Shown here one piece after another: positions 44,125-60,551 of a stretch of DNA of 64,000 bases (the stretch's first letter is position 1; the number at the start of each line of letters is the position of its first letter). The stretch lies in the NCBI GenBank assembly GCA_028716485.1, contig JAQUPS010000002.1, forward strand, positions 43,013 through 107,012. The letters are read 5' to 3'. A program made the position numbers and the translations under genes. A model generated the notes under the pieces. The model did no database searches, was not told where the DNA came from, and saw only the letters and a program-made list of their open reading frames with translations. Source of the DNA: Patescibacteria group bacterium. Lineage in GTDB: Bacteria > Patescibacteriota > Patescibacteriia > Patescibacteriales > WJLG01.

Positions 44125-44380
44125 GGCAAATTATATATACCAGATTTAAGCTTGGCTCTAATAATTTTCGCTTAAAAAAGCCTAAACCGCTATAAATCAT
44201 CAACTAAAAATTTCTCCCCCTTTCAAGGAGATTGAATTGTCAAAGAACGGAAAGAACCAAGCTATAAAAAGTGCATTTTGAAAACATCTTAGCACTAAGA
44301 GGATTTTTGTTCAATAGGCAAGCTTTTCCCGATATAGTCAAGAAAATGGAGTCAAAAAACCATTGTATTTGCATTCTATT

Positions 44381-44410
44381 AAAATAACCTGACGCAAGTC
44401 AGGTTATTTT
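44381..44410. terminator. bidirectional terminator-like hairpin (junction B1)
   Basis: aaaataacctgac-gcaa-gtcaggttatttt, an 11-13 bp stem with a GNRA loop. Confidence 0.55.
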
Positions 44411-44473
44411 AGTTCTCTCCTTCGCGGCCTACTGGCGGACTGCGTCCGCTGTAGCCCGATTCGGCGAGCGAAG

Positions 44474-44532
44474 GCGGGGAGTGAGCGATTTGAACCACTC
44501 GGGTTTGCGCGATAAAAAGTTGTCACTCCTTC
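44474..44532. repeat. junction repeat R-b, copy 1 (59 bp, tRNA-3'-end-like)
   Basis: gcggggagtgagcgatttgaaccactcgggtttgcgcgataaaaagttgtcactccttc matches 48381-48439 at 57 of 59 positions. The minus strand reads GGTTCAAATCGCTCACTCCCCGCC, which looks like a T-loop plus acceptor strand. Confidence 0.9.
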
Positions 44533-44640
44533 CATTGAATTTGGCTAACAATTGTTAAGTTTTCTAGACATCCCAAGCAATATTATTTTTATTCAATGTT
44601 AATGATTAAACAATTCATTACAAATCTCTCTGTGCTTACT

Positions 44641-44858: not shown

Positions 44859-44871
44859 TCGCTCCTCCTTT

Positions 44872-46203: not shown

Positions 46204-46206
46204 GAT

Positions 46207-46827: not shown

Positions 46828-46850
46828 TATAGACCTCTTTCTGGTTTAGT

Positions 46851-47477: not shown

Positions 47478-47532
47478 TTTTTCTCCTCAATTGTTAAAGT
47501 GCTAACCGTTTATATAAATCATTACTGGATAT

Positions 47533-48087: not shown

Positions 48088-48157
48088 TTTATTTAAAAAA
48101 ATTAAGCGGAAAATAACGCTTATTACAAGTTGTTTAAACCCCAATTTTAATGATTAA

Positions 48158-48186
48158 AGTTTACTATATAATTAAAGAACTGTCAA
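48158..48186 (-). promoter_or_regulatory. candidate promoter of the HD-to-peptide operon
   Basis: Minus strand: TTGACA, 17 nt, then TAAACT. Confidence 0.45.
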
Positions 48187-48292
48187 CTGCCAAAACGTAC
48201 CCATAAAATATCTTTTTTCAACACGATCCCCTTCAAAAAAGAAATGGGATTAGAACTAATATTTTTCATATTTTATAGCCTTTTTGACTTAA

Positions 48293-48332
48293 ACAGAAAA
48301 TCCTAGCACAAGCCAGGATTTTCTGTTTTTTT
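48293..48332 (+). terminator. terminator-like hairpin (junction B2)
   Basis: acagaaaatcctagc-acaa-gccaggattttctgt followed by TTTTTT on the + strand. Confidence 0.55.
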
Positions 48333-48351
48333 GCGAACATTCCCAAGGATC

Positions 48352-48439
48352 TCGGGTATGCACGATACTAAATTGTCTCTGCGGAGAGTGAGGGATTTGA
48401 ACCACTCGGGTTTGCGCGATAAAAAGTTGTCACTCCTTC
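48352..48439. repeat. composite junction repeat: R-a (48352-48384) plus R-b copy 2 (48381-48439)
   Basis: tcgggtatgcacgatactaaattgtctctgcgg matches 56894-56926 at 30 of 33 positions. The following 59 bp match 44474-44532. Confidence 0.9.
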
Positions 48440-48496
48440 TCTGATTTTACTTAAATTTATTATTTATCCGTAAAACACGCAAAAGCAAAGACTCCT

Positions 48497-49171
48497 TTAA
48501 ACGCCAAAAAAATATTTTGCCTGACCACTTTTCTTCAAAACAAAACCTATAAAAGGCGGCCTAATAGGAAATAATCCTCTAGTAAAACAATATATTGTTT
48601 CTAAAACTTTATTTTTGAAACAAAAACCGAAAGTTTCCAAGCATTCAGCGCCCGAGTCATTAATTATTTTTTTCCAAAATTTTACACTTAAAAATCTTTC
48701 ATCTCCGTGTATTCTTTGGCTATTAGAAAAATAATTAGTCGGCACAGAAATAATTACTGTTTCTGATTTGGATAGACAATACTGTATTGCTTCCACTATT
48801 CTTTCGTTGGAAAAATGCTCGAGTACGCCATTACTAAAAACTAAATCTTGAAAACCAATTTCGTCTGGCCAGTTAAATAAATCACCAACCCTTATATCAA
48901 CTTTATTGTTGGAAAATCCTACAACTTCTTTAGCGATCCTAATCATATTAACATCTGAGTCAATCCCGGAAACTGAATACCCCAGTGACCCTAAAAAAGC
49001 CAGAGAGGCGCCGGATCCGCAACCGATTTCTAATATTCTCCCTGATTTGCTGGCATGTTTGCATATAGCCTTTATCAGCCTCTTCTTATAACTAATCCTG
49101 CTAAAAACAAAACTCTCGACTGAACCAGCCTTTGCAATTTCTTCACCATAGACATACGACCATTTACTCAT
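48497..49171 (-). CDS. class I SAM-dependent methyltransferase
   Basis: Motif I ILEIGCGSGAS, with GIDSD as post-I. Confidence 0.85.
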   Translation of the reverse strand: MSKWSYVYGEEIAKAGSVESFVFSRISYKKRLIKAICKHASKSGRILEIGCGSGASLAFLGSLGYSVSGIDSDVNMIRIAKEVVGFSNNKVDIRVGDLFNWPDEIGFQDLVFSNGVLEHFSNERIVEAIQYCLSKSETVIISVPTNYFSNSQRIHGDERFLSVKFWKKIINDSGAECLETFGFCFKNKVLETIYCFTRGLFPIRPPFIGFVLKKSGQAKYFFGV

Positions 49172-49175
49172 AAAC

Positions 49176-49820
49176 TTACTTGTTAAAAAAAATTTTACTA
49201 GTCAGATTAATGATACTCTTGGATGACATTTTTTTACCACCCTCATTCTTCAGTCGCACTATCTTCTGCGCCAATTTATTACAACCGCTATTATTCGATT
49301 TAACCACGCAGCCATTAACTATCTCTTTTTGCCATAATGAATTAAATTTTACAACTGCAGAAAAATATTTCTTTTCAATAAACATTTTCGGGGTGCCTCG
49401 TAAAAATGCACTCTGGCCAGCGGAGAATCTTTTTTGGGCAATCTTTCTGTCACAGGAAACAAAAACATAAAAATCAGGAATTACAGTCTTCTTTTGCCTT
49501 AAAAGACTCTTTAGCGACTGTAAATGTTTTTCCCTCAAATCGATGCCGGAAAAAAAATATAAGGCATAAATATGCGCGGAAAGCGAAACAAAGCTTCTGT
49601 CAAGCATAACAATCCCCTTGCCCACTGCCTTCTGACGCAGATTGTCCACTTGCAAATAGCGTAAGTGCTCGTTGAACTCCGGAGAATATTTTTTTTCTCT
49701 CCTTATCTGGTCGACAAAAAATGTATGCTCGGCTATGCGTCGGCAGCCAATCTTTTCTGCCAGACAATTAACCAAGGTTGTTTTACCGGCAAAAACATTG
49801 CCATCGAATGCAACAATCAT
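49176..49820 (-). CDS. thymidylate-kinase/deoxynucleoside-kinase-like P-loop kinase
   Basis: IVAFDGNVFAGKTTL (P-loop) and a MLDRSFVS segment resembling the DRY/DRS motif of dNMP kinases. Confidence 0.65.
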   Translation of the reverse strand: MIVAFDGNVFAGKTTLVNCLAEKIGCRRIAEHTFFVDQIRREKKYSPEFNEHLRYLQVDNLRQKAVGKGIVMLDRSFVSLSAHIYALYFFSGIDLREKHLQSLKSLLRQKKTVIPDFYVFVSCDRKIAQKRFSAGQSAFLRGTPKMFIEKKYFSAVVKFNSLWQKEIVNGCVVKSNNSGCNKLAQKIVRLKNEGGKKMSSKSIINLTSKIFFNK

Positions 49821-50686
49821 AAAGACAATTTACATTTTTTACAAATATTCGGAAATTTTTTTCCTCCTCCATTAATCATTCTTCTTAAATCATTAAATCT
49901 CTTAGACTCCCAAACTTCTCCAATAGTTTGTATAGACAGATCACCAACAATGCATTCACGCCGCCAATCCATACTACAAAGAACTACCTTGCCGTCAAAA
50001 AGAATGTGCATTCTTTCTGTGTCTCTGTTTTGCTCGCAACCGCAAACATAATGGTTGTTGACTTTATTGTCATAAGCAGATACATTTCCTCCCCTGTCTA
50101 AAAATCCCCAGAATTCAAATTTTATAAAATTATCCTGACAATATTTCTTTGCCAAAGCAATATCTTTCGCACTTATCCCAGGATAATCAACCATGATCAA
50201 ACTTATCTGGCCAATCTTTGACCGCAATTTTTTATTAGCGCATAAAAGATCTAAATTATTTTTCGTATTCTCCCATCTTAAGCCAGTCATAGCTTTCTGA
50301 TAAGTCTTCTCTGTAAAACCAAACACGCTCAATCTTAATTCCTTAATACTGCACAATGACAACTCTTTCTGTTTCTTGCCATCAAGAATGGACAAATTGG
50401 TAGAAATTTCGACTTCAGCTGCCGGGCACTTCTCATTTATATATTTAACCCGATCGATAAAAAATTTATCCAAAAATGGTTCATTGTTCAAATAAGGAAT
50501 AATCCTGATACCCCAACAATTGTTACTGCTTATCTGTTCAATAATTTTTTCAAAAAGATCTTGATTCATAGATCCGCATGGCATCAGGCGCGAGACATCT
50601 TCATAAGGACAAACAACACAACCGCCATTGCAATATGAAGCTGTTTGAATTTCAAAAAATTTCGGGTAATCCAAATATTTTTTCAT
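49817..50686 (-). CDS. radical SAM enzyme with a SPASM/twitch-type C-terminal Cys cluster
   Basis: CNGGCVVC (CX3CX2C). C-terminal CGCEQ ... LCSMDW ... CKKCKL. Confidence 0.85.
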   Translation of the reverse strand: MKKYLDYPKFFEIQTASYCNGGCVVCPYEDVSRLMPCGSMNQDLFEKIIEQISSNNCWGIRIIPYLNNEPFLDKFFIDRVKYINEKCPAAEVEISTNLSILDGKKQKELSLCSIKELRLSVFGFTEKTYQKAMTGLRWENTKNNLDLLCANKKLRSKIGQISLIMVDYPGISAKDIALAKKYCQDNFIKFEFWGFLDRGGNVSAYDNKVNNHYVCGCEQNRDTERMHILFDGKVVLCSMDWRRECIVGDLSIQTIGEVWESKRFNDLRRMINGGGKKFPNICKKCKLSL

Positions 50687-51714
50687 TATTTTCTGAAAGT
50701 TATTATTGATTTAATATTCTTGCCAGACCAAGCATCTTTATAAGCTTGCTGATAGTTATCCATACTATAAACGCTGCTTGAGTCTATAAACGTTTCTGCT
50801 TTTAGCCGTCCAGATAAGACGCCTTCTATCACTTCTTCATGAACCGAACCCTCATCATAGTCCAAGCCATCAAAAAAACATATACCACTTCTTACACCAG
50901 GAGTAAAAAAAGCTTGATCTTTTTCTTTGTTTAAGCCATAAAGGCCAACTCTCGATCCAGCTTTCAGTGTTGTCACTAACTTGTTTAACATCCGATAATC
51001 CCCGCAAGCATCTATCACCCCTCTTACACCGAAAACAACCAAAGACTTAAGAATATTGTTCCAATCTTTTTCTTTATAAGAAATAAAGGCTTCGGCTCCG
51101 CAAGACAAAAATTTATCCCTCCGACCAGGATTACCGATAATAACCGTCCTTATCTTTAGATTATGAAGGTGGCATACAAACGACAATGCAACCGCTCCTG
51201 AACTAATAATTACTACATTATCTCCGGCAACAAAATTTAATCTTTTTAAAAAAGCTAAAGTTTCGCGCCAAGTAATAATCATTGTACTGGCAATCGGATC
51301 AAAATTTTTCGGCAAAACGCGATTGGCTGTAAATTTTTTCCATAAATCTTCTTTGCAGCCGTCTTCTTTCATAGCGCGCCAATCAACCGCTGTCCCGAAT
51401 TCCGCCATTCCACCCCAGACCAAATCAATTCCGCAACCTTCTGGCAGGTGATTATTAATCCTTGAAATCAAATCACCTGGTTTAAAATACTTAACCTTGC
51501 TTCCACGAGCCACAACAAGACCGACGGCTTCATGGCCGATGATGGCAGGGAGTTTAACTTTGAAACGATTGTGATTGCAAAAAATCTCATGATCGGTCCC
51601 GCTGCAAATCGCCGAAGCCTCAATCGAACAAAGAACCTCATATTCCCCCAAAATTGGGTCAGGAACATCTTTCAATTCCAACTTTTTAGGTAATTTAAGA
51701 ACAATTGCCTTCAT
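50686..51714 (-). CDS. zinc-type medium-chain alcohol dehydrogenase/reductase
   Basis: CSGTDHE and GHEAVGLVV zinc-ligand motifs, plus a Rossmann segment VVIISSGAVALS. Confidence 0.85.
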   Translation of the reverse strand: MKAIVLKLPKKLELKDVPDPILGEYEVLCSIEASAICSGTDHEIFCNHNRFKVKLPAIIGHEAVGLVVARGSKVKYFKPGDLISRINNHLPEGCGIDLVWGGMAEFGTAVDWRAMKEDGCKEDLWKKFTANRVLPKNFDPIASTMIITWRETLAFLKRLNFVAGDNVVIISSGAVALSFVCHLHNLKIRTVIIGNPGRRDKFLSCGAEAFISYKEKDWNNILKSLVVFGVRGVIDACGDYRMLNKLVTTLKAGSRVGLYGLNKEKDQAFFTPGVRSGICFFDGLDYDEGSVHEEVIEGVLSGRLKAETFIDSSSVYSMDNYQQAYKDAWSGKNIKSIITFRK

Positions 51715-51724
51715 AATACTATGG

Positions 51725-53374
51725 TTAGTTTATCCTATCAAGACCGGTATAGATACAATCAATGATATCAGCTCCTCCGCTCAATCCAATCTTATTTACA
51801 ATCTCGGCATGCTTAACCTTGATCGCCAAATGATATTTTTTAAATTCAGAAAAAAAATCAATTTTCCGATAGCCAAAACTGTCAATTTTTAGATGGCCAG
51901 CAAGAATCAGGTCGATGTAGCCGAGCAAAAAATCAAGCAAACTGTCCATAGCCTTATCCGCCGTCTTCTCTAAAATTGAAAAGTCTTTATCAACTTCTAA
52001 AAATATTTTATTATTATCTTGCTTGAGCAAGCTCTTCAGCAGAAATGCCGTGGTGCAAAAATATTCAAACTCATAAACCTCGTCTTTTATCTCTTCAAAA
52101 ATCGACTTAATTCCTTTTATGAATCTAGCCGTCTTGCGATCTTTATATCTATAACCGTAAGTTATACCGTTAAAATCGGCTTTGGCCTCAAGTAAACCGT
52201 CTTCGACCAGCTTTTTATGAAAACCTGATCCGGGAATCACTCTGACTGGCTCGAGAATAGTCCCCAATCTAAAGAGCTTATCAATCTTTCTCAGGTGCTT
52301 CAAATTTTCAGCAACTGCCGAAAGCCTTGAATATGGTTCAACAACTATATAGCCAATGTGAATATTTATATCGAATTTATCGAATTTGGTTTTTGCCTTT
52401 TCATAAGCATGAAGTGCAATTTTTTTATTCAAAACATCTTGGCTTTGCGAAGAAATATTCTCTATCCCTAAAAAAACTCTAACCAACCCGGCCTGATGCA
52501 AAGCCGACAAAATATCTTCCGGCATTTCTGGCTTAACTTTCAAATAGACATAAAATTTTACAGACAATTTCCTCTTTTTAATTTCTTTGCAAAAATCAAT
52601 AATCCGAGCATTGTCTGCCTTGCCGCGCCAAAAACAGCTATCATTAAAAATAAATAGTTTTTTTCCCAACGAACCGTTAAGCTTCTCCATTTCGTCAACC
52701 ACCAGCCTTGGTGATCGATAATCAATCTTTTCCTGACCGGAAATTTTTGAAACCAAGGGAATGTGGCAAAAACTGCATCCGCCATTGCAACCCCGCGAAG
52801 CCTCAATATTTATAAAGCTTCCTTTCTCTATTTTTTCTACATCTCGAGCTGGGAAAGGCAGGCCATTTAATCCGAGCCTTGAATTCCGAAAAGTAAAATC
52901 AGAAAAGAAATCTCCTCCTGATTTGCGCCAAACTCCGCCTGAACAATTTTGCGGCGTAAGTTTTTTACCAGCAGATATCAATCTTGCCAAATCCAAAGAA
53001 GTTTCTTCAGCATCACCAATCAATATTCCATCCAACCATGGCAGCTTTTTCATTATTGAATGATAATTCAAGCAAGCAAAAGGCCCGCAAAAAAAGACAC
53101 TATCAACCTCCCGTTGCTTCTTTAACTCGGCAAGTAACGGCAATAGCAGGGAATAATCCTTAAAATTTGGTTTAGCGATAACGATCTTTCTTCCCTCTCC
53201 TTGCAATATCTTTTCCGCGTTATGCAATCCTTGTCTTTCCATTAGACATAAATCGCAAACAAACCCGTTTTGACGCAGAAAAGCGGCAACAGACCCCATG
53301 GTCAAGGAGGCAGCCGATTGAGAAAAAAGGGTGCGGTAAAAAACTAATTTGAAAGTAATTTTTTTATTTTTCAT
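51725..53374 (-). CDS. cobalamin-binding-domain radical SAM enzyme (class B type)
   Basis: 549 aa. An N-terminal flavodoxin-like B12-binding-type region is followed by EASRGCNGGCSFC (CX3CX2C). Confidence 0.8.
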   Translation of the reverse strand: MKNKKITFKLVFYRTLFSQSAASLTMGSVAAFLRQNGFVCDLCLMERQGLHNAEKILQGEGRKIVIAKPNFKDYSLLLPLLAELKKQREVDSVFFCGPFACLNYHSIMKKLPWLDGILIGDAEETSLDLARLISAGKKLTPQNCSGGVWRKSGGDFFSDFTFRNSRLGLNGLPFPARDVEKIEKGSFINIEASRGCNGGCSFCHIPLVSKISGQEKIDYRSPRLVVDEMEKLNGSLGKKLFIFNDSCFWRGKADNARIIDFCKEIKKRKLSVKFYVYLKVKPEMPEDILSALHQAGLVRVFLGIENISSQSQDVLNKKIALHAYEKAKTKFDKFDINIHIGYIVVEPYSRLSAVAENLKHLRKIDKLFRLGTILEPVRVIPGSGFHKKLVEDGLLEAKADFNGITYGYRYKDRKTARFIKGIKSIFEEIKDEVYEFEYFCTTAFLLKSLLKQDNNKIFLEVDKDFSILEKTADKAMDSLLDFLLGYIDLILAGHLKIDSFGYRKIDFFSEFKKYHLAIKVKHAEIVNKIGLSGGADIIDCIYTGLDRIN

Positions 53375-53444
53375 GCCTTTACTTTAATAATACTCTTGTT
53401 ATAATATGCTATATAACGATTATAAATTATAATAATAACTCTAT

Positions 53445-53870
53445 ATGGAAAAAGGTTTAATTGTCCACGCCGCTATCCTCAATAATGATGAATTGCTAAT
53501 CCTTAAAAGAGCCCCTGGAACTTATTTGGAAAAACTGTGGGATATTCCAGGAGGCACACTTGAAGATGGCGAGGAACCAGAAGAAGGCACTATCCGCGAA
53601 GTCATGGAAGAAACCGGCTTAAATCTAAGCAAGGCGGCAATTTTTTATTGCCACTCTAACGTGGACCAAAAAAAGAACAAACAATTCGTGACCCTCATCT
53701 TCTTGGGCAAAACCGACCAAAAAGAAATAAAAATAAATCCTTCAGAACACAACGAATATGCATGGGTTAAGTTAGCTGAAATAAAAAAATATGAAACAGT
53801 TGATTATCTTCTTTCCTGTATTGAATATTTAGCAGAAAAAAAGAGCGGACTCAGCTCCTTAATATCTTAG
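53445..53870 (+). CDS. NUDIX hydrolase (copy 1)
   Basis: NUDIX box GGTLEDGEEPEEGTIREVMEETGL. The 3' end overlaps the convergent GT2 gene by 20 nt. Confidence 0.9.
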   Translation: MEKGLIVHAAILNNDELLILKRAPGTYLEKLWDIPGGTLEDGEEPEEGTIREVMEETGLNLSKAAIFYCHSNVDQKKNKQFVTLIFLGKTDQKEIKINPSEHNEYAWVKLAEIKKYETVDYLLSCIEYLAEKKSGLSSLIS

Positions 53871-55305
53871 TTTTATATTTATCAACTTCTCCGTTCGTAA
53901 TTTTTGCTTTAGCGGCCAAAAAAATTGAATAGTACGCCGACGCGCCATGCATAACATAGGCAAAAAAAGATCCGAACAATAAAAAAATTAAAGCCTCACC
54001 GGCTTTAATTTTTTTATCAGGAAATAACAAATATACCAGAAACCCTGGCAAAACCAAAAAGGTAAAATAGGCTAACAGAAAAGGCTCAAAATTTAAGGTT
54101 GCCAAGGAATATAAAAAAATAAATAACAAGCAAGTCGGCCCTATGACCCAAAAAATAGCATGAAAAAAAAGTTTGCTGGATAGAAAAAACAATCTTGCCC
54201 CATCAACCTCCGGAATCATGCCTTTCAATTTTTTAAAGTATAAAGGAGCCTGAAACGGCCCAAAAAACCAAGTAGCCTTCTGAAAAAATAAACTCTTAAC
54301 CGTATTGGGGGCGTCCGCAACATCAAAAAAAGGTATAGGAAAAATTGTTTTTTTCGCATAACTAAGTCCTAGGCCAAAAATCGCATCTTCATTGTGCGTA
54401 TCCTCGAAAAAATGATATTTTTCATAAATATCTCTGGTAAAAAACAAACCGTGGCCGATACAATAATTTAAGGGGTGCAAAAACCTCTCGCCGATAATCT
54501 TTTTTTTAAGAAAAATAAATTGCTTCAAACTGTTGAACATCTCAAAACCGACGCTCCATCTATTTTGCCAAATACACGATGAAATAAGAATCGCCCTGCT
54601 AATAAAATCACTCTTTAAAATCGATTCGGTATTTCCAAAATATTTTCCGTACTGCTGAAAAACCAAGCTGGAACCATTGCTTCTTTGATTCAACCAAAAA
54701 AATGTTTCCGAGTCAGGACGAGAATCAGCATTGTAAATTCCTAAAAGTTCGTTATGCCAAAATCCTTTATTAATCAATAATTTCAAACAATAATTAAGCT
54801 GATGCGCCATCTTCCCCGAAATAAAAGGATAATTAATCACCATCACCCCTTCCCGGTGGCAATCCTTCAAAACATCGATGGTATTTTTATACTCACTAAT
54901 CACTTCTAGCGCTTTGTTCTTTAAAATTTCAATATCTTTAAAACCGCTCAGGTCTGCACCGAAATCAGATTTAATAAGAGAAACGATTTCATTCCTTACT
55001 CCCTTAGACGCTAAAACCTTAACAGCCTCTTTGTTCTTTTTACAAATCTCATCTTCCTTTGCCGTAGTGACAATAATTAATTTTGATCCAGGAAACGGCT
55101 TAATCAAATTTAAAAAATAATCTATAGTGGCAAAAATAATATCTTTTTCTTCTATGACTGGAATGACCACAAAAAAAGGACGATTAGCTTTTCTCTCGCC
55201 ACCATAAAAAGCTCTCTCGCTTCTTTTCATCCAAAAAAAAGAAACTAATATTTTAACCAACCAATAAACCGATAACAAAATAAATAAATATAAAATTATT
55301 TTCAT
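53851..55305 (-). CDS. membrane-embedded family 2 glycosyltransferase, processive (synthase-like) type
   Basis: N-terminal TM span, FFVVIPVIEE, a YNADSRP (DxD-like) segment, the Q-x-x-RW motif CIWQNRW, and 4-5 C-terminal TM spans. Confidence 0.72.
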   Translation of the reverse strand: MKIILYLFILLSVYWLVKILVSFFWMKRSERAFYGGERKANRPFFVVIPVIEEKDIIFATIDYFLNLIKPFPGSKLIIVTTAKEDEICKKNKEAVKVLASKGVRNEIVSLIKSDFGADLSGFKDIEILKNKALEVISEYKNTIDVLKDCHREGVMVINYPFISGKMAHQLNYCLKLLINKGFWHNELLGIYNADSRPDSETFFWLNQRSNGSSLVFQQYGKYFGNTESILKSDFISRAILISSCIWQNRWSVGFEMFNSLKQFIFLKKKIIGERFLHPLNYCIGHGLFFTRDIYEKYHFFEDTHNEDAIFGLGLSYAKKTIFPIPFFDVADAPNTVKSLFFQKATWFFGPFQAPLYFKKLKGMIPEVDGARLFFLSSKLFFHAIFWVIGPTCLLFIFLYSLATLNFEPFLLAYFTFLVLPGFLVYLLFPDKKIKAGEALIFLLFGSFFAYVMHGASAYYSIFLAAKAKITNGEVDKYKTKILRS

Positions 55306-55340
55306 GTTTATAAAAAAGGCATTGAATAAAAATCAATGCC

Positions 55341-55970
55341 TTATTCAGAGTAACCAACTTTGGCAGCAAGTTCTTCTTGCTTAAAAAACATCAACGATTC
55401 CCTGATTGCATCTTCTTTACTGTCTGCACAATGAATCAGGTTGTAAACAGGGTGCTTCTTCTTTTCGTCTTCATACTTGAACCGGACGTGATTTCTCAAA
55501 TTCAGAAGCTCTCTGAAAATATCCGAGCCAGAAACCAACAAGCAGAGCGACGGTCCAGAAGTCAAATAGTTTAAAAAATGAGCCTCCCATATTCTTTCAA
55601 AGAAGTAAGGATAAAGGCGGAAAGCCATTTGCTGATCAAGCACTATTGTCTTTTCTGCAAGAATCTTAAAAGAACTGGCGACAATAGATCTTATTTCTTT
55701 GACCAATCCGCGCTCCCCGCAATCGGGCTTCAGGATACAGAGGCTAAAATCTTTGAGCAAAAAAAGCTCATCCGGAAACGACATGGAAATCCCCCTCCAA
55801 TACCGTTTCTCGTTTTGAACCATAATGTATTCACCATCGCTGTCGGTTTCAATAAACCCTTGAATGGTTGAACCAACATAATACCAGCGATCCTTACCGC
55901 CCAAAAAAACCTTACGTACTAGACGCCCTTTTTCATCGACAAGATATTTGCATTCGCTTTCCATATTCAC
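55341..55970 (-). CDS. nucleoside-diphosphate-kinase-like protein with an about 70-aa N-terminal extension
   Basis: LCILKPD ... LTSGPSLCLLV ... NLIHCADSKEDAIRESLMFF parallels the NDK strings IKPD ... MTSGPVVAMV ... NIIHGSDSVESAEKEIALWF, including the catalytic His. Confidence 0.6.
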   Translation of the reverse strand: MNMESECKYLVDEKGRLVRKVFLGGKDRWYYVGSTIQGFIETDSDGEYIMVQNEKRYWRGISMSFPDELFLLKDFSLCILKPDCGERGLVKEIRSIVASSFKILAEKTIVLDQQMAFRLYPYFFERIWEAHFLNYLTSGPSLCLLVSGSDIFRELLNLRNHVRFKYEDEKKKHPVYNLIHCADSKEDAIRESLMFFKQEELAAKVGYSE

Positions 55971-56190
55971 CCCCCTCCTTGATTTTTTGGTTATTATTAA
56001 TGGGAGACTCTTTTAAGGAGCTAATTTTGTTTCTATTAATTTACGTATCTTATACATACCACGTATTATCTATTTATGTCAAGTCTACAACAAAAACAAT
56101 AACATCCGTAAAAAACTTGATTATATCGCGCTATTTGTTTAATATGGTTAAGAGAAGCTGAACATTAACATTTTACAAAAGAGGTTTAAC

Positions 56191-56610
56191 ATGGAAAAAG
56201 GAATAATAGTCCATTCCTTAATCATAAATCAAGGAAAAATTCTAATTCTAAAAAGGGCAAAACAAGAAGATCCTCTTAAAAATCACTGGGATTTCCCCGG
56301 TGGTACGTTAGAGGATGGTGAACAACCAATTTTGGGCGCAAAAAGAGAAATACGGGAAGAAACCGGCCTGGTAGTAAAAGATTTACAACTGTTTTATTGC
56401 GTTTCCAATATTGATGCTAAAAAGAAAAAACAGTTCATTACCCTAATATTCTTAGGGAAAACAAAGGCTAACCCAAAAAAAATTAAGTTAAGCAAGCGCG
56501 AACACGGAGAATTCAAATGGATTGAATTAGATGAATTCCAAAATTATCAGGTTGTTGATTTCGTGAAAGGATGCGTGTCCTATCTAAAAAGTCACGATTA
56601 TGCAATTTAA
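56191..56610 (+). CDS. NUDIX hydrolase (copy 2, paralog of 53445..53870)
   Basis: NUDIX box GGTLEDGEQPILGAKREIREETGL. It is colinear with copy 1 from MEKG(I/L)IVH to the C-terminus. Confidence 0.9.
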   Translation: MEKGIIVHSLIINQGKILILKRAKQEDPLKNHWDFPGGTLEDGEQPILGAKREIREETGLVVKDLQLFYCVSNIDAKKKKQFITLIFLGKTKANPKKIKLSKREHGEFKWIELDEFQNYQVVDFVKGCVSYLKSHDYAI

Positions 56611-56632
56611 TAAAGTTGGATATTATTGCACA

Positions 56633-56662
56633 AAGGCCGTCACCGAACAGACGGCTTTTTTA
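56633..56662 (+). terminator. rho-independent terminator after NUDIX copy 2
   Basis: aaggccgtc-N8-gacggctt followed by TTTTT. Confidence 0.7.
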
Positions 56663-56733
56663 TTAGCGTTAACTAACCATTGCGGCTACAAAAAAATGGC
56701 TATTTTTCTACAATTACTAAAAATGTTGATTTT

Positions 56734-56755
56734 TGAAGCACACGGGATTCGAACC
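56734..56755 (-). other. isolated tRNA 3'-end-like fragment
   Basis: The minus strand reads GGTTCGAATCCCGTGTGCTTCA: T-loop, 3' T-stem, 7-nt acceptor strand and discriminator. No matching 5' half is present. Confidence 0.45.
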
Positions 56756-56776
56756 AAAATTACACATATTTTTCAC

Positions 56777-56839
56777 ATCTTTGACTAAATCTTTGACTAA
56801 ATCTTTGACTAAATCTTTGACTAAATCTTTGACTAAATC
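56777..56839. repeat. tandem 12-bp repeat, five full copies plus a partial one (iteron-like)
   Basis: (atctttgactaa) x5 then atc. TTGACTAA recurs at 56872-56879, and TTGACTA at 57569-57575. Confidence 0.95.
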
Positions 56840-56866
56840 AAAAAAATCTGACATAAATCAGATTTT
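56834..56866 (-). terminator. rho-independent terminator oriented on the minus strand (junction B3)
   Basis: Minus strand: AAAATCTGA-N6-TCAGATTTT followed by TTTTTGATTT. Confidence 0.65.
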
Positions 56867-56893
56867 CTCTATTGACTAACAATAGCCAACCAA

Positions 56894-56935
56894 TCGGGTC
56901 TGCACGATACTAAATTGTCTTGGCGGGACACTCGG
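56894..56935. repeat. junction repeat R-a copy 2 followed by a CACTCGGGT motif
   Basis: tcgggtctgcacgatactaaattgtcttggcgg, then gacactcgggt. CACTCGGGT also occurs in both R-b copies and at 57004-57012. Confidence 0.9.
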
Positions 56936-57107
56936 GTTAAGTGCCCCAGTTATACAATCATTATAAGGGTTTTATGCGCCTTAGTCCAGAGGCAAAATTG
57001 AAGCACTCGGGTCGGGGGTCTAAAAGCAAAATGAGACAAATGAGACACTATAAGGGGCTTTTTGGATTGTCTCATTTTGGGGCATAATGCAAATGGATAA
57101 AAGATAA

Positions 57108-57137
57108 GGCTATAGACTAGATATCTAGTCTATAGCC
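57108..57137. repeat. perfect 30-bp palindrome
   Basis: ggctatagactagat|atctagtctatagcc, with no spacer. Confidence 0.95.
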
Positions 57138-57220
57138 AAGATAATTAAGTGTAACGTTTTCCTGTTTTCATCGTATAATTAAGTATAAGCAGTTAAAGCA
57201 ATCTGTTGCTTTTTTTGCTA

Positions 57221-57248
57221 TTGCTTTTTTCTATATAAATGCTATAAT
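57221..57248 (+). promoter_or_regulatory. strong sigma70-like promoter
   Basis: TTGCTT, 16 nt, then TGCTATAAT (extended -10 with a consensus hexamer). Confidence 0.55.
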
Positions 57249-57254
57249 TATAAT

Positions 57255-57738
57255 CATAAAAGTACCATTAAAATTCATAAAATCAAGCCTCTCGGGAGAG
57301 ATCTGCGAGAGGGGGAGTATCGGGATTATTAGATGCTGATTCAATTCTCGGGCCTTCAATGTCTTTGAAACAAGGCGAAAAAACGGCAATATTTGCTATT
57401 CCCTTGCGCGGGGTTAAAGCGCGGCAAATATCAGGCATTTCGCTTACTGAGTAAGTTTCCGGGGGATTATCCCCCCGCCCTGCAGGAGAAATTCTGCAAG
57501 GAGAGCCATTGAAATCAGCAAAAAATAATTAATTCACCAGTTAATCCGATATTTTTGAAACAAAACCTTGACTATTAAAATTGCTCATCTGCTTTTTCTT
57601 ATAGCAGTAAAACAATAAGTAGGGCAAAATTAATATTCCGGTATCTGGGTAGTTTCCAAGATCGCTTATTTATTTGAGCGTTTTTGGAATTTACCCTGAT
57701 AGGGTAAAAAAGAACGCCTCAATAAGCGTTCTTTTTTT
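57255..57738 (+). ncRNA. candidate about 480-nt structured non-coding transcript or long leader upstream of the ParB-like gene
   Basis: Bounded by the promoter at 57221-57248 and the terminator at 57709-57738, with no ORF over about 11 codons. It contains many local hairpins: cctctcg/cgagagg, ggggg-attat-ccccc, cttac-tga-gtaag, tgcag/ctgca and ttaccct-gat-agggtaa. Confidence 0.35.
57709..57738 (+). terminator. rho-independent terminator immediately upstream of the ParB-like gene
   Basis: aaagaacgc-N8-gcgttcttt followed by TTTT. Confidence 0.65.
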
Positions 57739-57764
57739 CATTTATAAACTAAAAATTAAAAAAT

Positions 57765-58232
57765 ATGTTGAATAAAAACAATCTTAACATCGTTTATGTT
57801 TCTATAAGTTCATTGCGCCCATCAGAGTATAATCCGCGTAAATGGGGCAAGGAAGCAAAAGAACAATTGAAACAAAGTATTAGCCGATTCGGGCTGGTTG
57901 ATCCGCTTCTCGTCAATTCCGCCAAAGGCCGGGAGGGCGTGGTCATCGGCGGCCATTTCCGTCTATTCATAGCCAAAGAATTGGGATACGTCAAAGTACC
58001 TGTTGTTTATATTTGTATTGACGACCTAGAAAAAGAAAAAGAACTGAATATTAGGCTTAATAAAAACTTGGGGGAATTTGATTGGGATATGCTGGCTGAT
58101 TTCGGCAATTCCCTGCTAACTGATATCGGATTTTCCAGCGAAGAATTGGATAATATCTTTGGTATTGATGAAAGCCCGGAAATGTTTAATTTGGACAAAG
58201 AATTGAAAAAATTAAACATCAAAAAAATCTAA
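57765..58232 (+). CDS. ParB-like nuclease/partition N-terminal-domain protein
   Basis: VSISSLRPSEYNPRKW ... VIGGHFR, the ParB/Srx-fold box. It ends at a TAA that is in frame with the next ORF. Confidence 0.8.
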   Translation: MLNKNNLNIVYVSISSLRPSEYNPRKWGKEAKEQLKQSISRFGLVDPLLVNSAKGREGVVIGGHFRLFIAKELGYVKVPVVYICIDDLEKEKELNIRLNKNLGEFDWDMLADFGNSLLTDIGFSSEELDNIFGIDESPEMFNLDKELKKLNIKKI

Positions 58233-58256
58233 ATCCAAAAAGGAGATGTTTGGCAA

Positions 58257-59096
58257 TTGGGAAAAAATCGCTTAATGTGTGGCAATTCGACTATGGAAAA
58301 CGATGTTTTAAAACTCATGGGCGATGAAAAAGCCGATATGTGCCTGACTGATCCGCCATACCTTTTAGACTATCTAAAAGGTAAAAAAAAGAAAAATGGC
58401 GAAGTGACCAAGGGTTTCGGATTAAAACGTGACCGCGTTTATCTCGGCACCGAAACTTTGCCGGATAATTTCACTGAATTATGGATGAATAATGTCGCTA
58501 AAATTCAAAAACCGGACTTCTCCATAATTGTCTATGAAAATCCAAAAAATCTAAGAACGATTTGGAATGAATTAGAAAAGCATTGGAAATATCGCAATAC
58601 GATTATTTGGCACATTCCCAACCGGGTCCAAGGATTTAGCGCGAAATATAAATTATTCAATAAGCATGATTTTGCAATTGTCGGAACTTCGGGGAAGATT
58701 GGGCTGAATACCGAATCGGAATCAGACGAATTGCTGCAAACCGAATATGAAACGGCCCTATTCGCCACTTCTGGCTCTCCACAGTGGGAAAGCTACGGCA
58801 AGGGAAAAAAATACTGCCCAACCGATTTTATTGAGCATATCGCGGCCGATGAAAAATCTTCGGGACAAGGCATTATTTTCGGAACCAAGCCTTTAGAAAT
58901 TCTAATCCCCTACATAAAAGTAATGACCAGGCGCGATGCCCTTATTGTGGAACCATTCGGCGGAAGCGGATCAACCCTGATTGCCGCCCAAAAAATGAAC
59001 CGGCGCTGTTTTCTAATGGAAAAATCGCCAGTCTATGCCGAAGTGATTAAAAAACGCTGGGAAAATTTAACCAACCTTAAAGCTGAAAAAATATGA
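58257..59096 (+). CDS. N4/N6 DNA methyltransferase (beta-class order), phage ParB-methylase type
   Basis: Catalytic motif IV is CLTDPPY, and the C-terminal SAM-binding motif I is VEPFGGSGSTLIAA. Homology-like sequence (KGDVWQLG) starts at 58239, upstream of the TTG called by the track. Confidence 0.85.
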   Translation: MGKNRLMCGNSTMENDVLKLMGDEKADMCLTDPPYLLDYLKGKKKKNGEVTKGFGLKRDRVYLGTETLPDNFTELWMNNVAKIQKPDFSIIVYENPKNLRTIWNELEKHWKYRNTIIWHIPNRVQGFSAKYKLFNKHDFAIVGTSGKIGLNTESESDELLQTEYETALFATSGSPQWESYGKGKKYCPTDFIEHIAADEKSSGQGIIFGTKPLEILIPYIKVMTRRDALIVEPFGGSGSTLIAAQKMNRRCFLMEKSPVYAEVIKKRWENLTNLKAEKI

Positions 59097-59506
59097 AAAC
59101 AGACAAAGAAAAGCAATTGTTTCTTGAACAGCTAAAAAAAACTCCGATTGTCCAGATCGCCTGCGAAAAAACTAGTTTGAGCCGGGCCACCTATTACCGC
59201 TGGAGGCAAGCTGATTCGGAATTTACCAAAGCGACTGATGAAGCTATTTTTGAAGGCGGACTGTTAATTAATGATATGGCCGAATCCCAGTTAATTTCCG
59301 CCATTAGAGATAAGAATTTTTCGGCGATCGTTTATTGGCTCAAGCATCACCATCCCACTTATGCCAATCGCTTAGAAATAACTGCCCAGCTGAAACAATC
59401 AGAAGAATTAACGCCAGAGCAAGCAACGATAGTGCGCGAGGCTCTGCGCCGATCTTCTCTATTGATTGATCAGGAAACTGCGGGCAACCAAGAATATGAA
59501 AAATAA
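59093..59506 (+). CDS. terminase small-subunit-like HTH protein
   Basis: 137 aa with an N-terminal HTH (IACEKTSLSRATYYRWRQ). Its start and stop overlap the neighbouring genes, and it lies directly upstream of the large terminase. Confidence 0.6.
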   Translation: MKTDKEKQLFLEQLKKTPIVQIACEKTSLSRATYYRWRQADSEFTKATDEAIFEGGLLINDMAESQLISAIRDKNFSAIVYWLKHHHPTYANRLEITAQLKQSEELTPEQATIVREALRRSSLLIDQETAGNQEYEK

Positions 59507-60551
59507 TGAAATAAAGGCGTTGGATGATCAAAAATTAATGGAAGAAATTGCTAAGGATCAAAAAATCCGCACGGCCATTAGCCGCAAGGATCACTTTTGG
59601 TTCTTTAATATTTATTTTTCTCACTATCTAATTTATCCTCCGGCCTTGTTCCACAAAGAAATGTTTGAACTCTCGCAAAGGGATGATCTTCGACTTATTG
59701 CTATCATGGCCTTTCGTGGCTCGGGTAAATCAACCATCATGAATTTATCCTATGCTCTATGGTCAATCTTGGGAAAATTTGAAAGAAAGTTTGTTCTAAT
59801 TGTCAGCGAAACTCAGAGTCAAGCCGAAGTACATTTCTCCGACATCCTTCATGAGCTAAAAACTAATGAACTATTAAGTGCTGATCTTGGACCATTTGAA
59901 GAAACAAGAGAACCTTACTCCGTACTGCTAAAGAATCTCAATGCCAAAATCATGTTCGTCTATCGCGGACAAACGATTCGGGGCATGCGCCACGGACCAC
60001 ATCGACCAGACTTAATTATCATTGATGATATTGAAGACAGTTGGTCTGCACAACCAGGACTAACGCGTGATACTACTTTTGAATGGTTCGAAACTGAAAT
60101 TATTCCAGCGGGAAACTCCGACACGACCATTGTAATTCTTGGAAACCTATTGCATGAAGATTCGTTCCTAATGCGCATTAGAGAAAACGTTAACGATGGA
60201 AAGATGCTCGGCGTATTCAGGGCCTACCCCTTGCTTGATGATTTAAATCAGAATCTCTGGCCGGAAAAATTCACCGAAGAAAATGTTGAACAGCTCAAGA
60301 AGAACAATTCGGCCTGGAAAAAAGAATATCTCTTGGAACTTAAAAAACCAATAACCACGATTATCGATTTGCTTGATCTAACAGAGCAAGGATCTTCAGA
60401 TAAAAAAAACGGTCAAACAAAAAAGGCTGTCCGCTTAGGAAAATATGTAATCAGCGCGCCGATTACAGGATGTTATGACTTAGGCAAGATTGATAAAATA
60501 TTAGATGAGATTGAAAATAAAAATCACTCTAAGGAAAATCACCCTCCCTAA
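59496..60551 (+). CDS. terminase large subunit, short (about 351 aa), probably C-terminally truncated
   Basis: Walker A AFRGSGKST, Walker B DLIIIDDIED and the coupling segment IVILGNLLHEDS. The ATGAAAAATAA overlap with the upstream stop supports a start at 59496. Confidence 0.75.
   Translation: MKNNEIKALDDQKLMEEIAKDQKIRTAISRKDHFWFFNIYFSHYLIYPPALFHKEMFELSQRDDLRLIAIMAFRGSGKSTIMNLSYALWSILGKFERKFVLIVSETQSQAEVHFSDILHELKTNELLSADLGPFEETREPYSVLLKNLNAKIMFVYRGQTIRGMRHGPHRPDLIIIDDIEDSWSAQPGLTRDTTFEWFETEIIPAGNSDTTIVILGNLLHEDSFLMRIRENVNDGKMLGVFRAYPLLDDLNQNLWPEKFTEENVEQLKKNNSAWKKEYLLELKKPITTIIDLLDLTEQGSSDKKNGQTKKAVRLGKYVISAPITGCYDLGKIDKILDEIENKNHSKENHPP

What the first reader, a model, noticed from the sequence alone, without database searches (positions are those of the whole stretch)
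56840..57764. About 0.9-kb ORF-free, hairpin-dense region with its own strong promoter and terminator and a perfect 30-bp palindrome
There is no credible ORF in a genome that is otherwise tightly packed. A near-consensus promoter (TTGCTT, 16 nt, TGCTATAAT at 57221-57248) fires toward a terminator at 57709-57738, which sits just 27 nt before the ParB-like start. That defines a potential RNA of about 480 nt full of local stems. Upstream lie a spacer-less 30-bp palindrome (57108-57137), an 11-bp-stem hairpin built on repeated ATGAGACA words (57037-57078), and two CACTCGGGT motifs. Possible roles are a large structured ncRNA of a mobile element, a terminator-controlled leader regulating the ParB-methylase-terminase module, or a phage-type ori, pac or cos region.
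Basis: seen in the sequence. Interest (0 to 1): 0.55.

Follow-up and report, generated by a model that had tools for sequence, protein, structure and literature searches.

The report
Mobile-element junction plus structured operon leader
The gene-free stretch is the non-coding left end of a decaying mobile element in a Patescibacteria genome. It combines a widely conserved, previously uncatalogued 160-bp block of protein-binding-type repeats, where other gene cassettes have been spliced in, with a separate promoter, folded leader and terminator unit in front of the ParB/terminase genes.

Summary
The region is a composite of two parts.

(1) Window 56918-57077 ("EL") holds both CACTCGGGT motifs and the ATGAGACA hairpin. 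It recurs, same strand and upstream, next to ParB-methylase/TerS/TerL modules in 35 or more of 80 Patescibacteria species loci and in 119 of 120 metagenome contigs fetched with a 20-nt motif. It has no Rfam match and no consensus RNA fold. Its repeats co-vary as three equivalent copies, and it sits where conserved element genes meet unrelated DNA. In this window a perfect 20-nt direct repeat (48359 and 56901) brackets an 8.5-kb low-GC cassette. I read EL as a DNA-level recombination or junction site.

(2) Window 57221-57745 is an extended -10 promoter, a 490-nt RNA that folds far better than chance (z = -6) and a terminator 27 nt before ParB. Only the closest relative conserves the sequence, with compensatory changes. 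The architecture is family-wide, so I read it as a termination-controlled leader.

The 30-bp palindrome is real but not conserved. The element is decaying: it has a nonsense codon in ParB-methylase and no recombinase gene.

The parts
56734..56755 (-). tRNA 3'-end-like fragment (GGTTCGAATCCCGTGTGCTTCA: T-loop, T-stem and acceptor 3' strand), not an intact tRNA
   Evidence: Unique in the window within 3 mismatches. ARAGORN and Rfam call no tRNA here. 13 of 14 nt are shared with 56998-57011 inside EL (D13). T-loop-like motifs are 4.6-fold enriched in the 250 nt left of EL copies elsewhere.
56777..56839 (+). Perfect tandem repeat, 5.2 copies of the 12-bp unit ATCTTTGACTAA; not conserved in relatives
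   Evidence: 5 copies against 0.46 expected. No homologue in any fetched locus.
56838..56873 (-). Terminator-like hairpin (AAAATCTGA/TCAGATTTT) with a T7 run on the minus strand. It would stop leftward transcription leaving the element.
   Evidence: Sequence; inverted repeat I11; weak minus-strand terminator-type Rfam hits. An analogous hairpin lies at the same relative place in the 48.3-kb and 44.4-kb repeat copies. A terminator-like hairpin lies within 110 nt beyond EL in 21 of 52 other copies.
56882..56928 (+). Direct-repeat block with a perfect 20-nt core, TGCACGATACTAAATTGTCT, at 56901-56920. Its partner is at 48340-48386 (core 48359-48378). The block includes box M0 (CAATCGGGTC).
   Evidence: Two exact copies of the core against 0.00 expected; alignment A9. 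The same M0-CGATAC flank precedes EL in about 20 other loci.
56918..57077 (+). EL: the conserved 160-bp element. The L part (56918 to about 57022) has boxes M1 (56928-56938) and M2 (57003-57013) plus TATAAGGG. The R part (57029-57077) has AAATGAGACA twice and one inverted copy.
   Evidence: nhmmer hits in 35 or more of 80 genome loci, always on the same strand as ParB, and in 119 of 120 metagenome loci. No consensus fold. Copy co-variation.
57108..57137 (.). Perfect 30-bp palindrome (GGCTATAGACTAGAT|ATCTAGTCTATAGCC). It is lineage-specific; only the left arm is partly present in L005.
   Evidence: (I4). No homologue found. L005 has ATAGACTAGA at the matching position.
57221..57248 (+). Extended -10 promoter: TTGCTT, 16 nt, TGcTATAAT. 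A second -10-like TATAAT lies at 57174-57179.
   Evidence: (D8). L005 has TTGACT, 16 nt, TGcTATTAT at the equivalent position.
57255..57745 (+). Predicted transcript of about 490 nt: a 5' hairpin at 57288-57312, a GC-rich middle part absent from L005 (about 57346-57552), and 3' hairpins at 57578-57704
   Evidence: z = -6.04. Blocks 57281-57345 and 57553-57748 are 84% and 77% identical to L005. The consensus structure has 5 compensatory pairs out of 44.
57706..57737 (+). Intrinsic terminator (12-bp stem AAAAAAGAACGC/GCGTTCTTTTTT with a T-run), 27 nt before the ParB start
   Evidence: Conserved with a different loop in L005 at 2420-2442, 29 nt before its ParB-methylase ATG.
57765..59096 (+). ParB_N-N6/N4 methylase gene, broken by one in-frame TAA at 58230-58232 where L005 has Glu. 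The ORFs are 57765-58232 and 58257-59096.
   Evidence: Pfam and PHROG hits; translation. The gene is a single fused ORF of about 445 aa in L005 and most loci.
59093..60551 (+). TerS-like HTH protein (59093-59506) and a TerL-like ATPase without the nuclease domain (59466-60551, 361 aa)
   Evidence: Full-length relatives are about 490 aa with a Terminase_6C domain. 20 of 21 nuclease-less loci carry EL, against 6 of 54 full-length ones.
48286..48450 (+). Second copy of the junction repeat: terminator hairpin, M0 box, 20-nt core, then a tRNA-like 60-nt unit. It marks the left border of an 8.5-kb low-GC cassette.
   Evidence: GC profile; cassette genes.
44376..44545 (+). Third, more diverged copy of the junction repeat: a terminator hairpin plus the same tRNA-like 60-nt unit as at 48386-48445

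Best explanation
The ORF-free stretch is the non-coding left end of a decaying integrated mobile element of a Patescibacteria genome. That element carries ParB-methylase, small terminase and a nuclease-less large terminase. The stretch has two independent parts. Part 1 (about 56.84-57.08 kb) is a family-conserved junction element, EL, with its M0/CGATACT flank. It is built from co-varying repeats: three CTCGGGT boxes in direct order, and three AAATGAGACA boxes, two direct and one inverted. I infer that it works as DNA, as the binding array of a site-specific recombination (att-type) site at the element's end. Relatives carry a large serine recombinase and an excisionase-like gene next to it, and other integrase-less cassettes have been spliced in there, leaving direct repeats. 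Part 2 (57.22-57.74 kb) is an extended -10 promoter driving a highly folded leader of about 490 nt. The leader ends in an intrinsic terminator 27 nt before ParB. I infer that the ParB-methylase/terminase operon is expressed only on read-through (antitermination-type control), or is at least insulated from upstream transcription. Shown: conservation, position, repeat co-variation, direct repeats, folding statistics, and promoter and terminator sequence. Inferred: which protein binds EL, that recombination happens there, and that the terminator is regulated.
For: EL conservation and position. nhmmer finds the 160-nt block upstream of and co-oriented with ParB in 35 or more of 80 species loci, 0.26-5.5 kb away, and in 119 of 120 metagenome loci. 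To its right, genes are conserved: ParB-methylase in 30 of 90 copies and the c4 family in 27 of 90, at a median of 68 nt. To its left, nothing is conserved. In L154, EL lies directly after a host ABC-transporter operon, and a large serine recombinase closes the element 11.7 kb away.

Link to recombination. The c3 cluster is a large serine recombinase, with Resolvase, Recombinase and Zn_ribbon_recom domains. It abuts EL in L049, L043, L034 and L203. In L214, EL-plus-recombinase units are repeated in tandem. The c4b proteins give weak HTH_17, MerR and Excisionase hits at one position.

Arrays and breakpoints. L303 carries four EL copies bounding 1-2-kb cargo cassettes, and L208 carries three. 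Partial copies end recurrently at model column 100-112. In L008, L291 and L068, EL is split there by inserted DNA. In this window a perfect 20-nt repeat at 48359 and 56901 (0.00 expected) sits within a similar block of about 45 nt. A third copy lies at 44.4 kb. These copies bracket low-GC cassettes of radical-SAM, methyltransferase, NUDIX and kinase genes.

DNA rather than RNA. No consensus structure exists on either strand apart from the repeat hairpin. The L part folds no better than shuffles, z = -0.1 and -0.4. Both direct GAGACA copies match the inverted copy equally, 91.4% and 90.4%. G-T and A-C mismatch types show no strand bias. There is no Rfam hit.

Leader. The promoter is unique in 64 kb. 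Folding gives z = -6.04. L005 has the same promoter, 5' hairpin, 3' hairpins and terminator layout, with 5 compensatory pairs. Across the family, the 300 nt before ParB-methylase have mean z = -3.9 where the gap is at least 250 nt (n = 42), against -0.68 inside the gene. Terminator-like sites occur on the ParB strand in 18 of 80 loci, against 1 of 80 on the other strand and 0.6 expected.
Against: No recombinase, integrase or c4 gene lies in the window near EL. The ParB-methylase gene carries a nonsense codon. The site may therefore be a relic here.

Serine-recombinase att sites are normally about 50 bp with a 2-bp identity. A 160-bp multi-repeat block and a 20-nt perfect repeat are not typical of them. 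No EL-like sequence was found beyond the recombinase gene at the other end of complete elements.

Copies of EL's L part that occur alone are not next to recombinase genes, and copies of the R part that occur alone are not next to element genes. A simple model in which the L and R parts are the two arms of attP therefore fails.

No protein has been shown to bind EL.

Leader sequence conservation rests on one relative. The family-wide z-scores use mononucleotide shuffles. Some upstream terminators may simply end the preceding gene. A conserved TATAAA at 57743 could give ParB its own promoter, which would make the upstream RNA a separate product. No antiterminator gene was identified.
Confidence: 0.5

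Rival explanations
1. EL is a small RNA gene on the minus strand, running roughly 57077 down to 56840 and ending at the 56866-56838 terminator. Islands use it as an integration target, as they use tRNA and tmRNA genes, and each island brings a replacement 3' end.
For: Full and partial copies lie in direct order, with the full copy at one end (L303; window copies at 44.4, 48.3 and 56.9 kb). Each window copy is followed on the minus strand by its own, non-homologous terminator hairpin. 21 of 52 other copies have such a hairpin. The boxes resemble tRNA T-stem and acceptor 3' ends. A tRNA 3' fragment lies at 56734-56755, and T-loop motifs are enriched to the left of EL.
Against: There is no conserved secondary structure, and the L part folds like shuffled sequence. 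No conserved promoter lies upstream on the minus strand. Wobble-type mismatches show no strand bias. ARAGORN and Rfam find no tRNA, tmRNA or other family. EL travels with the ParB element on one side rather than sitting in a constant host context.
Confidence: 0.2
2. EL is the packaging recognition site (pac or cosB-like) bound by the element's small terminase. It would let a helper phage package the element.
For: EL is linked to the TerS/TerL module. 20 of 21 loci with a nuclease-less TerL carry EL, against 6 of 54 with a full TerL. It always has the same orientation as the terminase genes. Its boxes are short, lie in direct and inverted order around an A/T-rich centre, and co-vary as protein sites do. 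From general knowledge, this layout resembles the R sites of lambda cosB.
Against: In 60 of 90 full copies no ParB/terminase module lies within 2.5 kb. Arrays of three or four copies bound cargo cassettes without terminase genes. The distance to terS varies from 1.6 to more than 6 kb, with unrelated genes in between. A packaging role would not explain the recurrent breakpoints or the 20-nt direct repeat.
Confidence: 0.12
3. The 57255-57745 transcript is a free-standing structured non-coding RNA of the element, not a leader. ParB would have its own promoter after the terminator.
For: The transcript has its own promoter and a strong terminator, and folds at z = -6.04. ATTTATAAA, a -10-like motif, lies between the terminator and the ATG and is identical in L005. 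Related elements do carry a known small RNA, LOOT (RF03000), in their intergenic regions.
Against: Only one relative shares the sequence, and its middle 200 nt are missing. The structured, terminator-bearing region always sits directly upstream of and co-oriented with ParB-methylase across the family. No -35 accompanies the TATAAA. There is no Rfam match.
Confidence: 0.25
4. The region is a replication origin with iterons (the 12-bp repeat in 5 copies and the CTCGGGT boxes), a palindrome and a neighbouring ParB.
For: The region holds dense direct repeats and a perfect palindrome. GC skew changes sign near 56 kb.
Against: The 12-bp array and the palindrome are not conserved in any relative. No initiator gene is present. 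The ParB_N domain is the N-terminus of a methylase, not a partition protein. The skew change coincides with a switch in gene orientation.
Confidence: 0.05

Closest known systems
Composite SCC-type islands integrated by large serine recombinases (Ccr)
   Same: Integrase-less cassettes accumulate in tandem at one site, and each is bounded by direct repeats of the attachment sequence. Large serine recombinase genes occur in related elements, directly beside the repeated site.
   Different: The repeated unit here is 45-160 nt and internally repetitive, not a core of about 20 bp. The site is not the 3' end of a conserved protein gene. No recombinase gene lies in this window. Patescibacteria are the hosts.
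tRNA/tmRNA-targeting genomic islands (Islander paradigm, PMC4383910)
   Same: Full and partial copies lie in direct order, with islands between them. Each copy has a downstream terminator. The boxes resemble tRNA 3' ends, and a tRNA 3' fragment lies nearby.
   Different: No tRNA or tmRNA gene is detected at EL by ARAGORN or Rfam. No tyrosine integrase is present. One side of EL is always the same element.
Lambda-type late-operon control (PR' promoter, 6S leader RNA, tR' terminator, Q antitermination) and HK022 put RNA
   Same: A strong promoter, a leader RNA and an intrinsic terminator lie immediately upstream of the packaging genes. This comparison rests on general knowledge.
   Different: The leader here is about 490 nt and very structured. 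No Q-like or other antiterminator was identified. The first gene is ParB-methylase. Regulation is untested.
Lambda cosB (terminase small-subunit R sites)
   Same: A block of about 150-200 bp holds short repeats in direct and inverted order near terminase genes.
   Different: EL also occurs in arrays without terminase genes, and it marks insertion breakpoints.
LOOT RNA (Rfam RF03000)
   Same: LOOT occurs in the same family of ParB-methylase, terminase and recombinase elements: L035, L024, L055, L018, L109 and L043.
   Different: It is not present in this window at any threshold. It is unrelated in sequence to EL and to the leader.
IS110 bridge RNA
   Same: Both are non-coding elements at the end of a mobile element, next to a recombinase gene, made of two homologous modules whose short boxes co-vary with a box in the flanking DNA.
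   Different: EL has no conserved stem-loop structure. The recombinase is a serine, not a DEDD, enzyme. No transcript is known.

Membership tests
Any Rfam 15 RNA family | Score at or above the family's gathering threshold | tested here: not met
   Across the whole window only two tRNAs pass, at 30 and 36 kb. A permissive scan of 56550-57850 gives only sub-threshold terminator-like hits; the best is 29.8 bits against a threshold of 114.
LOOT RNA (RF03000) | Match to the covariance model | tested here: not met
   Absent from the window. Present at 67-94 bits in six related loci.
tRNA or tmRNA gene (as integration target) | Cloverleaf or tmRNA detected by ARAGORN or Rfam at the site | tested here: not met
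   None at 56.6-57.8 kb. No tRNA in 303 loci has a 3' end matching box M1. Only a 22-nt 3' fragment is present, at 56734-56755.
tDNA-type island integration | Displaced target fragment in direct orientation at the far end of the island | tested here: met
   A perfect 20-nt repeat lies at 48359 and 56901 within a similar block of about 45 nt, and a third copy lies at 44.4 kb.
tDNA-type island integration | Tyrosine integrase gene next to the junction | tested here: not met
   Pfam and PHROG scans of the flanking ORFs find no integrase.
Large-serine-recombinase att site | Recombinase gene adjacent to the site | tested here: inconclusive
   A recombinase is adjacent in related loci L049, L043, L034, L203, L189 and L214. 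None is present in this window.
Large-serine-recombinase att site | Site of about 40-50 bp with imperfect dyad symmetry around a 2-bp crossover, and no long flanking repeats | tested here: inconclusive
   The R part in many copies is a dyad of about 50 bp with two boxes per arm. However, the breakpoints fall at column 100-112, outside that dyad, and a 20-nt repeat flanks the cassette. No repeat was found at the recombinase end.
Structured non-coding RNA (EL) | Conserved secondary structure with compensatory changes and folding energy below shuffles | tested here: not met
   Only the repeat hairpin is predicted. Mean z for the L part is -0.08 and -0.44. Both direct copies pair equally well, and there is no strand bias.
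Structured RNA (leader 57255-57745) | Folding energy below shuffles and compensatory changes in homologues | tested here: met
   z = -6.04. 5 of 44 pairs are compensatory against L005. There is only one homologue, so the covariation support is thin.
Intrinsic (Rho-independent) terminator | G+C-containing stem-loop followed by a U-run on the transcribed strand | tested here: met
   57706-57737: 12 pairs, 4 of them G-C, followed by a T-run. Conserved in L005.
Sigma-70 extended -10 promoter | TGnTATAAT with a TTG-type -35 at 16-18 nt | tested here: met
   57221-57248, the only such match in 64 kb. Promoter activity is not testable with these tools.
Q-type or put-type antitermination | Antiterminator protein gene, or put-like paired stem-loops acting in cis | not tested
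   No candidate protein was recognised in the window. No assay was possible.
Phage pac or cos site | Terminase binding and cleavage at the site | not testable with these tools
   Only the association with TerS/TerL could be measured.

The most novel reading that the evidence does not exclude
EL is transcribed, and its two homologous modules act as an unstructured guide-like RNA, or as a templating strand. The CTCGGGT-type boxes would match the box in the flanking target DNA (M0). That would direct a serine recombinase, or cassette capture, to the site: an RNA-specified recombination system outside the IS110 family. Three observations leave this open. The boxes co-vary between the modules and the flank. 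EL sits directly beside recombinase genes. Minus-strand terminators follow it.
Probability: 0.06. Interest if true: 0.9.

Novelty: new variant of a known kind. Interest (0 to 1): 0.55.

Why it matters
Patescibacteria have tiny genomes and are almost entirely uncultured, and how they exchange genes is poorly understood. This locus exposes a widespread family of small elements carrying ParB-methylase, terminase and serine-recombinase genes. The family shares a conserved, uncatalogued 160-bp end element at which unrelated cargo cassettes pile up. If EL is the recombination site, it gives a sequence tag for finding element borders and cargo across the phylum. It also provides a defined substrate for testing their serine recombinases. 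The strongly folded, terminator-ended leaders in front of the ParB-methylase/terminase operon suggest an untested RNA-level switch for the packaging genes. The orphan LOOT RNA also gains a genomic context.

Tried and rejected
Alternative genetic code. All six frames carry TAA, TAG and TGA.

Remnants of neighbouring genes. A blastx of the region against all ORFs of related loci found nothing.

Small ORFs. The 18-aa plus-strand and 41-aa minus-strand ORFs through the GAGACA boxes are not conserved: L048 stops after 4 codons and L006 lacks a start codon (alignments).

EL as a structured RNA. RNAalifold on both strands, an all-pairs helix scan and z-scores were all negative.

Box M1 as a host tRNA 3' end. 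No tRNA in 303 loci matches it, and the tRNA-Asp beside L006 does not match.

Simple model in which EL's L and R parts are the two arms of attP. Copies of the R part that occur alone are not next to element genes, and copies of the L part that occur alone are not next to recombinase genes.

Direct repeats between EL and the far end of the element. None were found after TerL or after the recombinase.

Viral scan with the 18-mer. 16 of 19 hits were unrelated tandem repeats.

The palindrome. It was not found in viral contigs or any fetched locus.

Aligning the 11 BLAST-linked upstream regions. They were too diverged for a consensus fold.

Defence-system models. Only methylase hits were returned.

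Literature. Three searches found no description of this element or of LOOT context.

One script timed out, and one Rfam call exceeded the size limit.
Full report
**Origin and setting**

The window matches a Patescibacteria (CPR) metagenome-assembled genome, GCA_043956575.1, contig JBINOC010002844.1. The finding lies between a NUDIX hydrolase gene (56191-56610) and a four-gene block on the plus strand:
- ParB_N domain protein (57765-58232)
- N6/N4 DNA methylase (58257-59096)
- a small-terminase-like HTH protein (59093-59506)
- a large-terminase-like ATPase (59466-60551)

- The interval 56611-57764 has no ORF longer than 52 aa. All six frames carry all three stop codons, so recoding cannot hide a gene.
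- The promoter TTGCTT, 16 nt, TGcTATAAT at 57221-57248 is the only TTG-N16-TGnTATAAT in 64 kb, against 0.10 expected.
- The terminator at 57706-57737 ends 27 nt before the ParB ATG.
A third motif copy lies at 56891.
- The predicted transcript 57255-57745 folds at -153.4 kcal/mol, with z = -6.04 against dinucleotide shuffles.
- Rfam gives no family at or near threshold.

**The region is two things. The first is EL, a conserved 160-bp block**

BLAST and iterated nhmmer show that window 56918-57077 is conserved at the DNA level in at least 35 of those loci. It is always on the ParB strand and always upstream, at 0.26-5.5 kb. This interval holds both CACTCGGGT motifs and the ATGAGACA hairpin. A 20-nt motif scan of metagenomes returned 120 contigs, of which 119 carry the block.

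Nothing else in the finding is conserved beyond the closest relative, L005. That includes the palindrome, the 12-bp tandem array to the left, and the middle of the leader.

**EL does not behave like an RNA**

- RNAalifold on either strand predicts only the repeat hairpin. An all-against-all helix scan of 37 sequences finds nothing else.
- The left 105-130 nt (the L part) fold no better than shuffled sequence, with mean z of -0.08 and -0.44 on the two strands.
- In 81 sequences, the inverted AAATGAGACA copy matches the first direct copy in 91.4% of cells and the second in 90.4%. Both show concerted changes. One arm cannot pair with both partners at once, so this is the signature of three (in many loci four) co-evolving copies of a recognition sequence.
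- G-T-type and A-C-type mismatches show no consistent strand preference.
- The CTCGGGT boxes also change in concert as direct repeats, for example CTCGGGT, GTCTCGGTC and CTCAGTC.

**EL sits at an element border and at insertion points**

Clustering the ORFs around 121 EL copies gives conserved neighbours only on the right:
- ParB-methylase
- a zinc-ribbon protein family (c4) at a median of 68 nt
- TerS and TerL

The left side is unrelated DNA.

The c3 cluster is a large serine recombinase. The c4b proteins give weak, sub-threshold HTH_17, MerR and Excisionase hits at one position.

In L154 the order is: host ABC transporter, EL, c4b, GmrSD, DUF2779, ParB-methylase, methylase, TerS, TerL, recombinase, host helicase. 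The recombinase gene abuts EL in several loci. In L214, units of EL plus recombinase are repeated in tandem.

L303 has four EL copies that are 75-80% identical to each other. They bound cassettes encoding a methyltransferase, an IS200-type TnpA, and GNAT/ASCH proteins. Partial copies end recurrently at model column 100-112. In L008, L291 and L068, EL is split there by inserted DNA.

**The window itself shows the same pattern**

The 20-mer TGCACGATACTAAATTGTCT occurs exactly twice, at 48359 and 56901 on the same strand, against 0.00 expected. It lies inside a similar block of about 45 nt, and each copy is preceded by a terminator-type hairpin. A third, more diverged copy lies at 44376-44545.

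Between the copies lie low-GC cassettes (0.35-0.39, against 0.43-0.48 elsewhere). They carry radical-SAM, methyltransferase, deoxynucleoside-kinase, HD, NDK and three NUDIX genes, and no recombinase.

A 22-nt tRNA 3'-end fragment lies at 56734-56755. T-loop-like motifs are 4.6-fold enriched to the left of EL copies, and two loci have a whole tRNA there. No intact tRNA or tmRNA corresponds to EL.

**Reading of EL**

The best reading is a DNA-level site-specific recombination (att-type) region at the end of the element. It would also serve as a landing site where integrase-less cassettes accumulate, much as in composite SCC islands.

Three weaknesses stand against this reading. A 160-bp multi-repeat site and a 20-nt identity are atypical for serine recombinases. 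No EL-like sequence lies at the recombinase end of complete elements. A simple model in which the L and R parts are the two arms of attP fails.

Rival readings:
- A minus-strand small RNA gene used as an integration target. Terminators follow EL on that strand in 21 of 52 copies and in all three window copies. However, there is no structure, no conserved promoter and no strand bias.
- A terminase recognition site. 20 of 21 nuclease-less TerL loci carry EL, against 6 of 54 full-length ones. However, EL arrays occur without terminase genes.

**The second thing is the promoter, leader and terminator unit**

L005 (ParB 84% identical) has TTGACT, 16 nt, TGcTATTAT at the equivalent place. It shares:
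- the 5' hairpin block, 57281-57345, at 84% identity
- the last 200 nt, 57553-57748, at 77% identity
- the terminator, with a different loop

A two-sequence consensus fold keeps 44 pairs, 5 of them through double changes. The GC-rich middle 200 nt of the window's leader are absent from L005.

Across the family the sequences are not alignable, but the architecture recurs:
- The 300 nt before ParB-methylase have mean z = -3.9 where the intergenic gap is at least 250 nt (n = 42). 42% of all 80 loci fall below -3. The mean is -0.68 inside the gene. These z-scores use mononucleotide shuffles.
- Strict terminator-like sites occur on the ParB strand within 250 nt of the start in 18 of 80 loci, against 1 of 80 on the opposite strand and 0.6 expected.

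This works like the promoter, leader and terminator arrangement in front of phage late or packaging operons. That would mean expression by read-through, or at least insulation from upstream transcription. No antiterminator was identified. A conserved TATAAA after the terminator leaves room for a separate ParB promoter, in which case the 490-nt RNA would be a free-standing product.

**State of the element**

ParB-methylase is a single gene of about 445 aa in relatives. In the window it is broken by a GAA-to-TAA change at 58230. TerL lacks the Terminase_6C nuclease domain. No recombinase or c4 gene is present. The element is probably a relic, so the sites described may no longer be used in this genome.

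**Novelty**

EL and the leader are absent from Rfam. Three literature searches found no description of them. In kind they are familiar: an element-end recombination site and a terminator-controlled leader. Their form is unusual, and they are widespread in a poorly known phylum. I therefore class the finding as a new variant of a known kind, of moderate interest.

Noticed in passing
L035:5460-5581(-), L024:5453-5573(-), L055:5342-5462(-), L018:10125-10246(-), L109:4850-4979(-), L043:9366-9483(-): LOOT RNA (Rfam RF03000, an orphan small-RNA motif) scores 67-94 bits inside six related ParB-methylase, terminase and recombinase elements, on the strand opposite to ParB. It is absent from this window. 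This gives LOOT a mobile-element context in Patescibacteria.
   Followed up: partly
window 58230-58232: ParB_N and the methylase form one fused gene in relatives (444 aa in L005). Here a single in-frame TAA replaces a Glu codon and splits it. L006 and L033 are also split.
   Followed up: yes
window 59466-60551; L005, L008, L010, L011, L019, L021, L033, L034, L043, L049, L068, L069: A recurrent TerL variant of 340-415 aa keeps the ATPase domain but replaces the RNaseH-like nuclease domain with a short tail carrying a shared motif (Q.ALIPPM.EF.I..P). It co-occurs with EL in 20 of 21 loci.
   Followed up: partly
window 44478-44540 and 48386-48445: Two near-identical 60-nt units have 7-nt complementary ends (GGAGTGA/TCACTCC on the minus strand) and a GGTTCAAATC T-loop-like core. 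They look tRNA-like but are not called by ARAGORN. Each sits at a cassette border.
   Followed up: partly
window 44000-57000: A low-GC block (0.35-0.39) holds three radical-SAM enzymes, several methyltransferases, a deoxynucleoside kinase, HD, NDK, AAA_28 and three NUDIX genes. It looks like horizontally acquired nucleotide- or DNA-modification cargo.
   Followed up: partly
window 56777-56839: A perfect 12-bp tandem repeat (ATCTTTGACTAA, 5.2 copies, each copy containing TTGACT) lies just left of the finding. It is not conserved in any relative. Two Logan assemblies break here.
   Followed up: partly
L100 (IMGVR_UViG_3300020195_001307), unit 9117 bp: The contig is an exact tandem or concatemer of a 9117-bp unit. 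The unit carries EL, two unknown genes, ParB-methylase, a second methylase, TerS, a short TerL, a PfkB kinase, a ribonucleotide reductase and NUDIX. It may be a small circular form of such an element.
   Followed up: partly
15-25 nt upstream of the ParB-methylase start in many loci (window 57750-57762): An A/T motif, TTAAnAATTAA, lies just before the start codon, and no Shine-Dalgarno sequence is visible. It could be a translation-initiation signal or a promoter element.
   Followed up: no
L055:4227-4337(-): A SAM riboswitch (RF00162, 67 bits) lies about 1.7 kb upstream of ParB-methylase in one related locus.
   Followed up: no
window 30315-30325: A CTCGGGT-type box (GCCTTCGGGTC) lies 22 nt from tRNA-Trp (30347-30418). 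Box-like 11-mers number 14 in the window against 5.9 expected.
   Followed up: no
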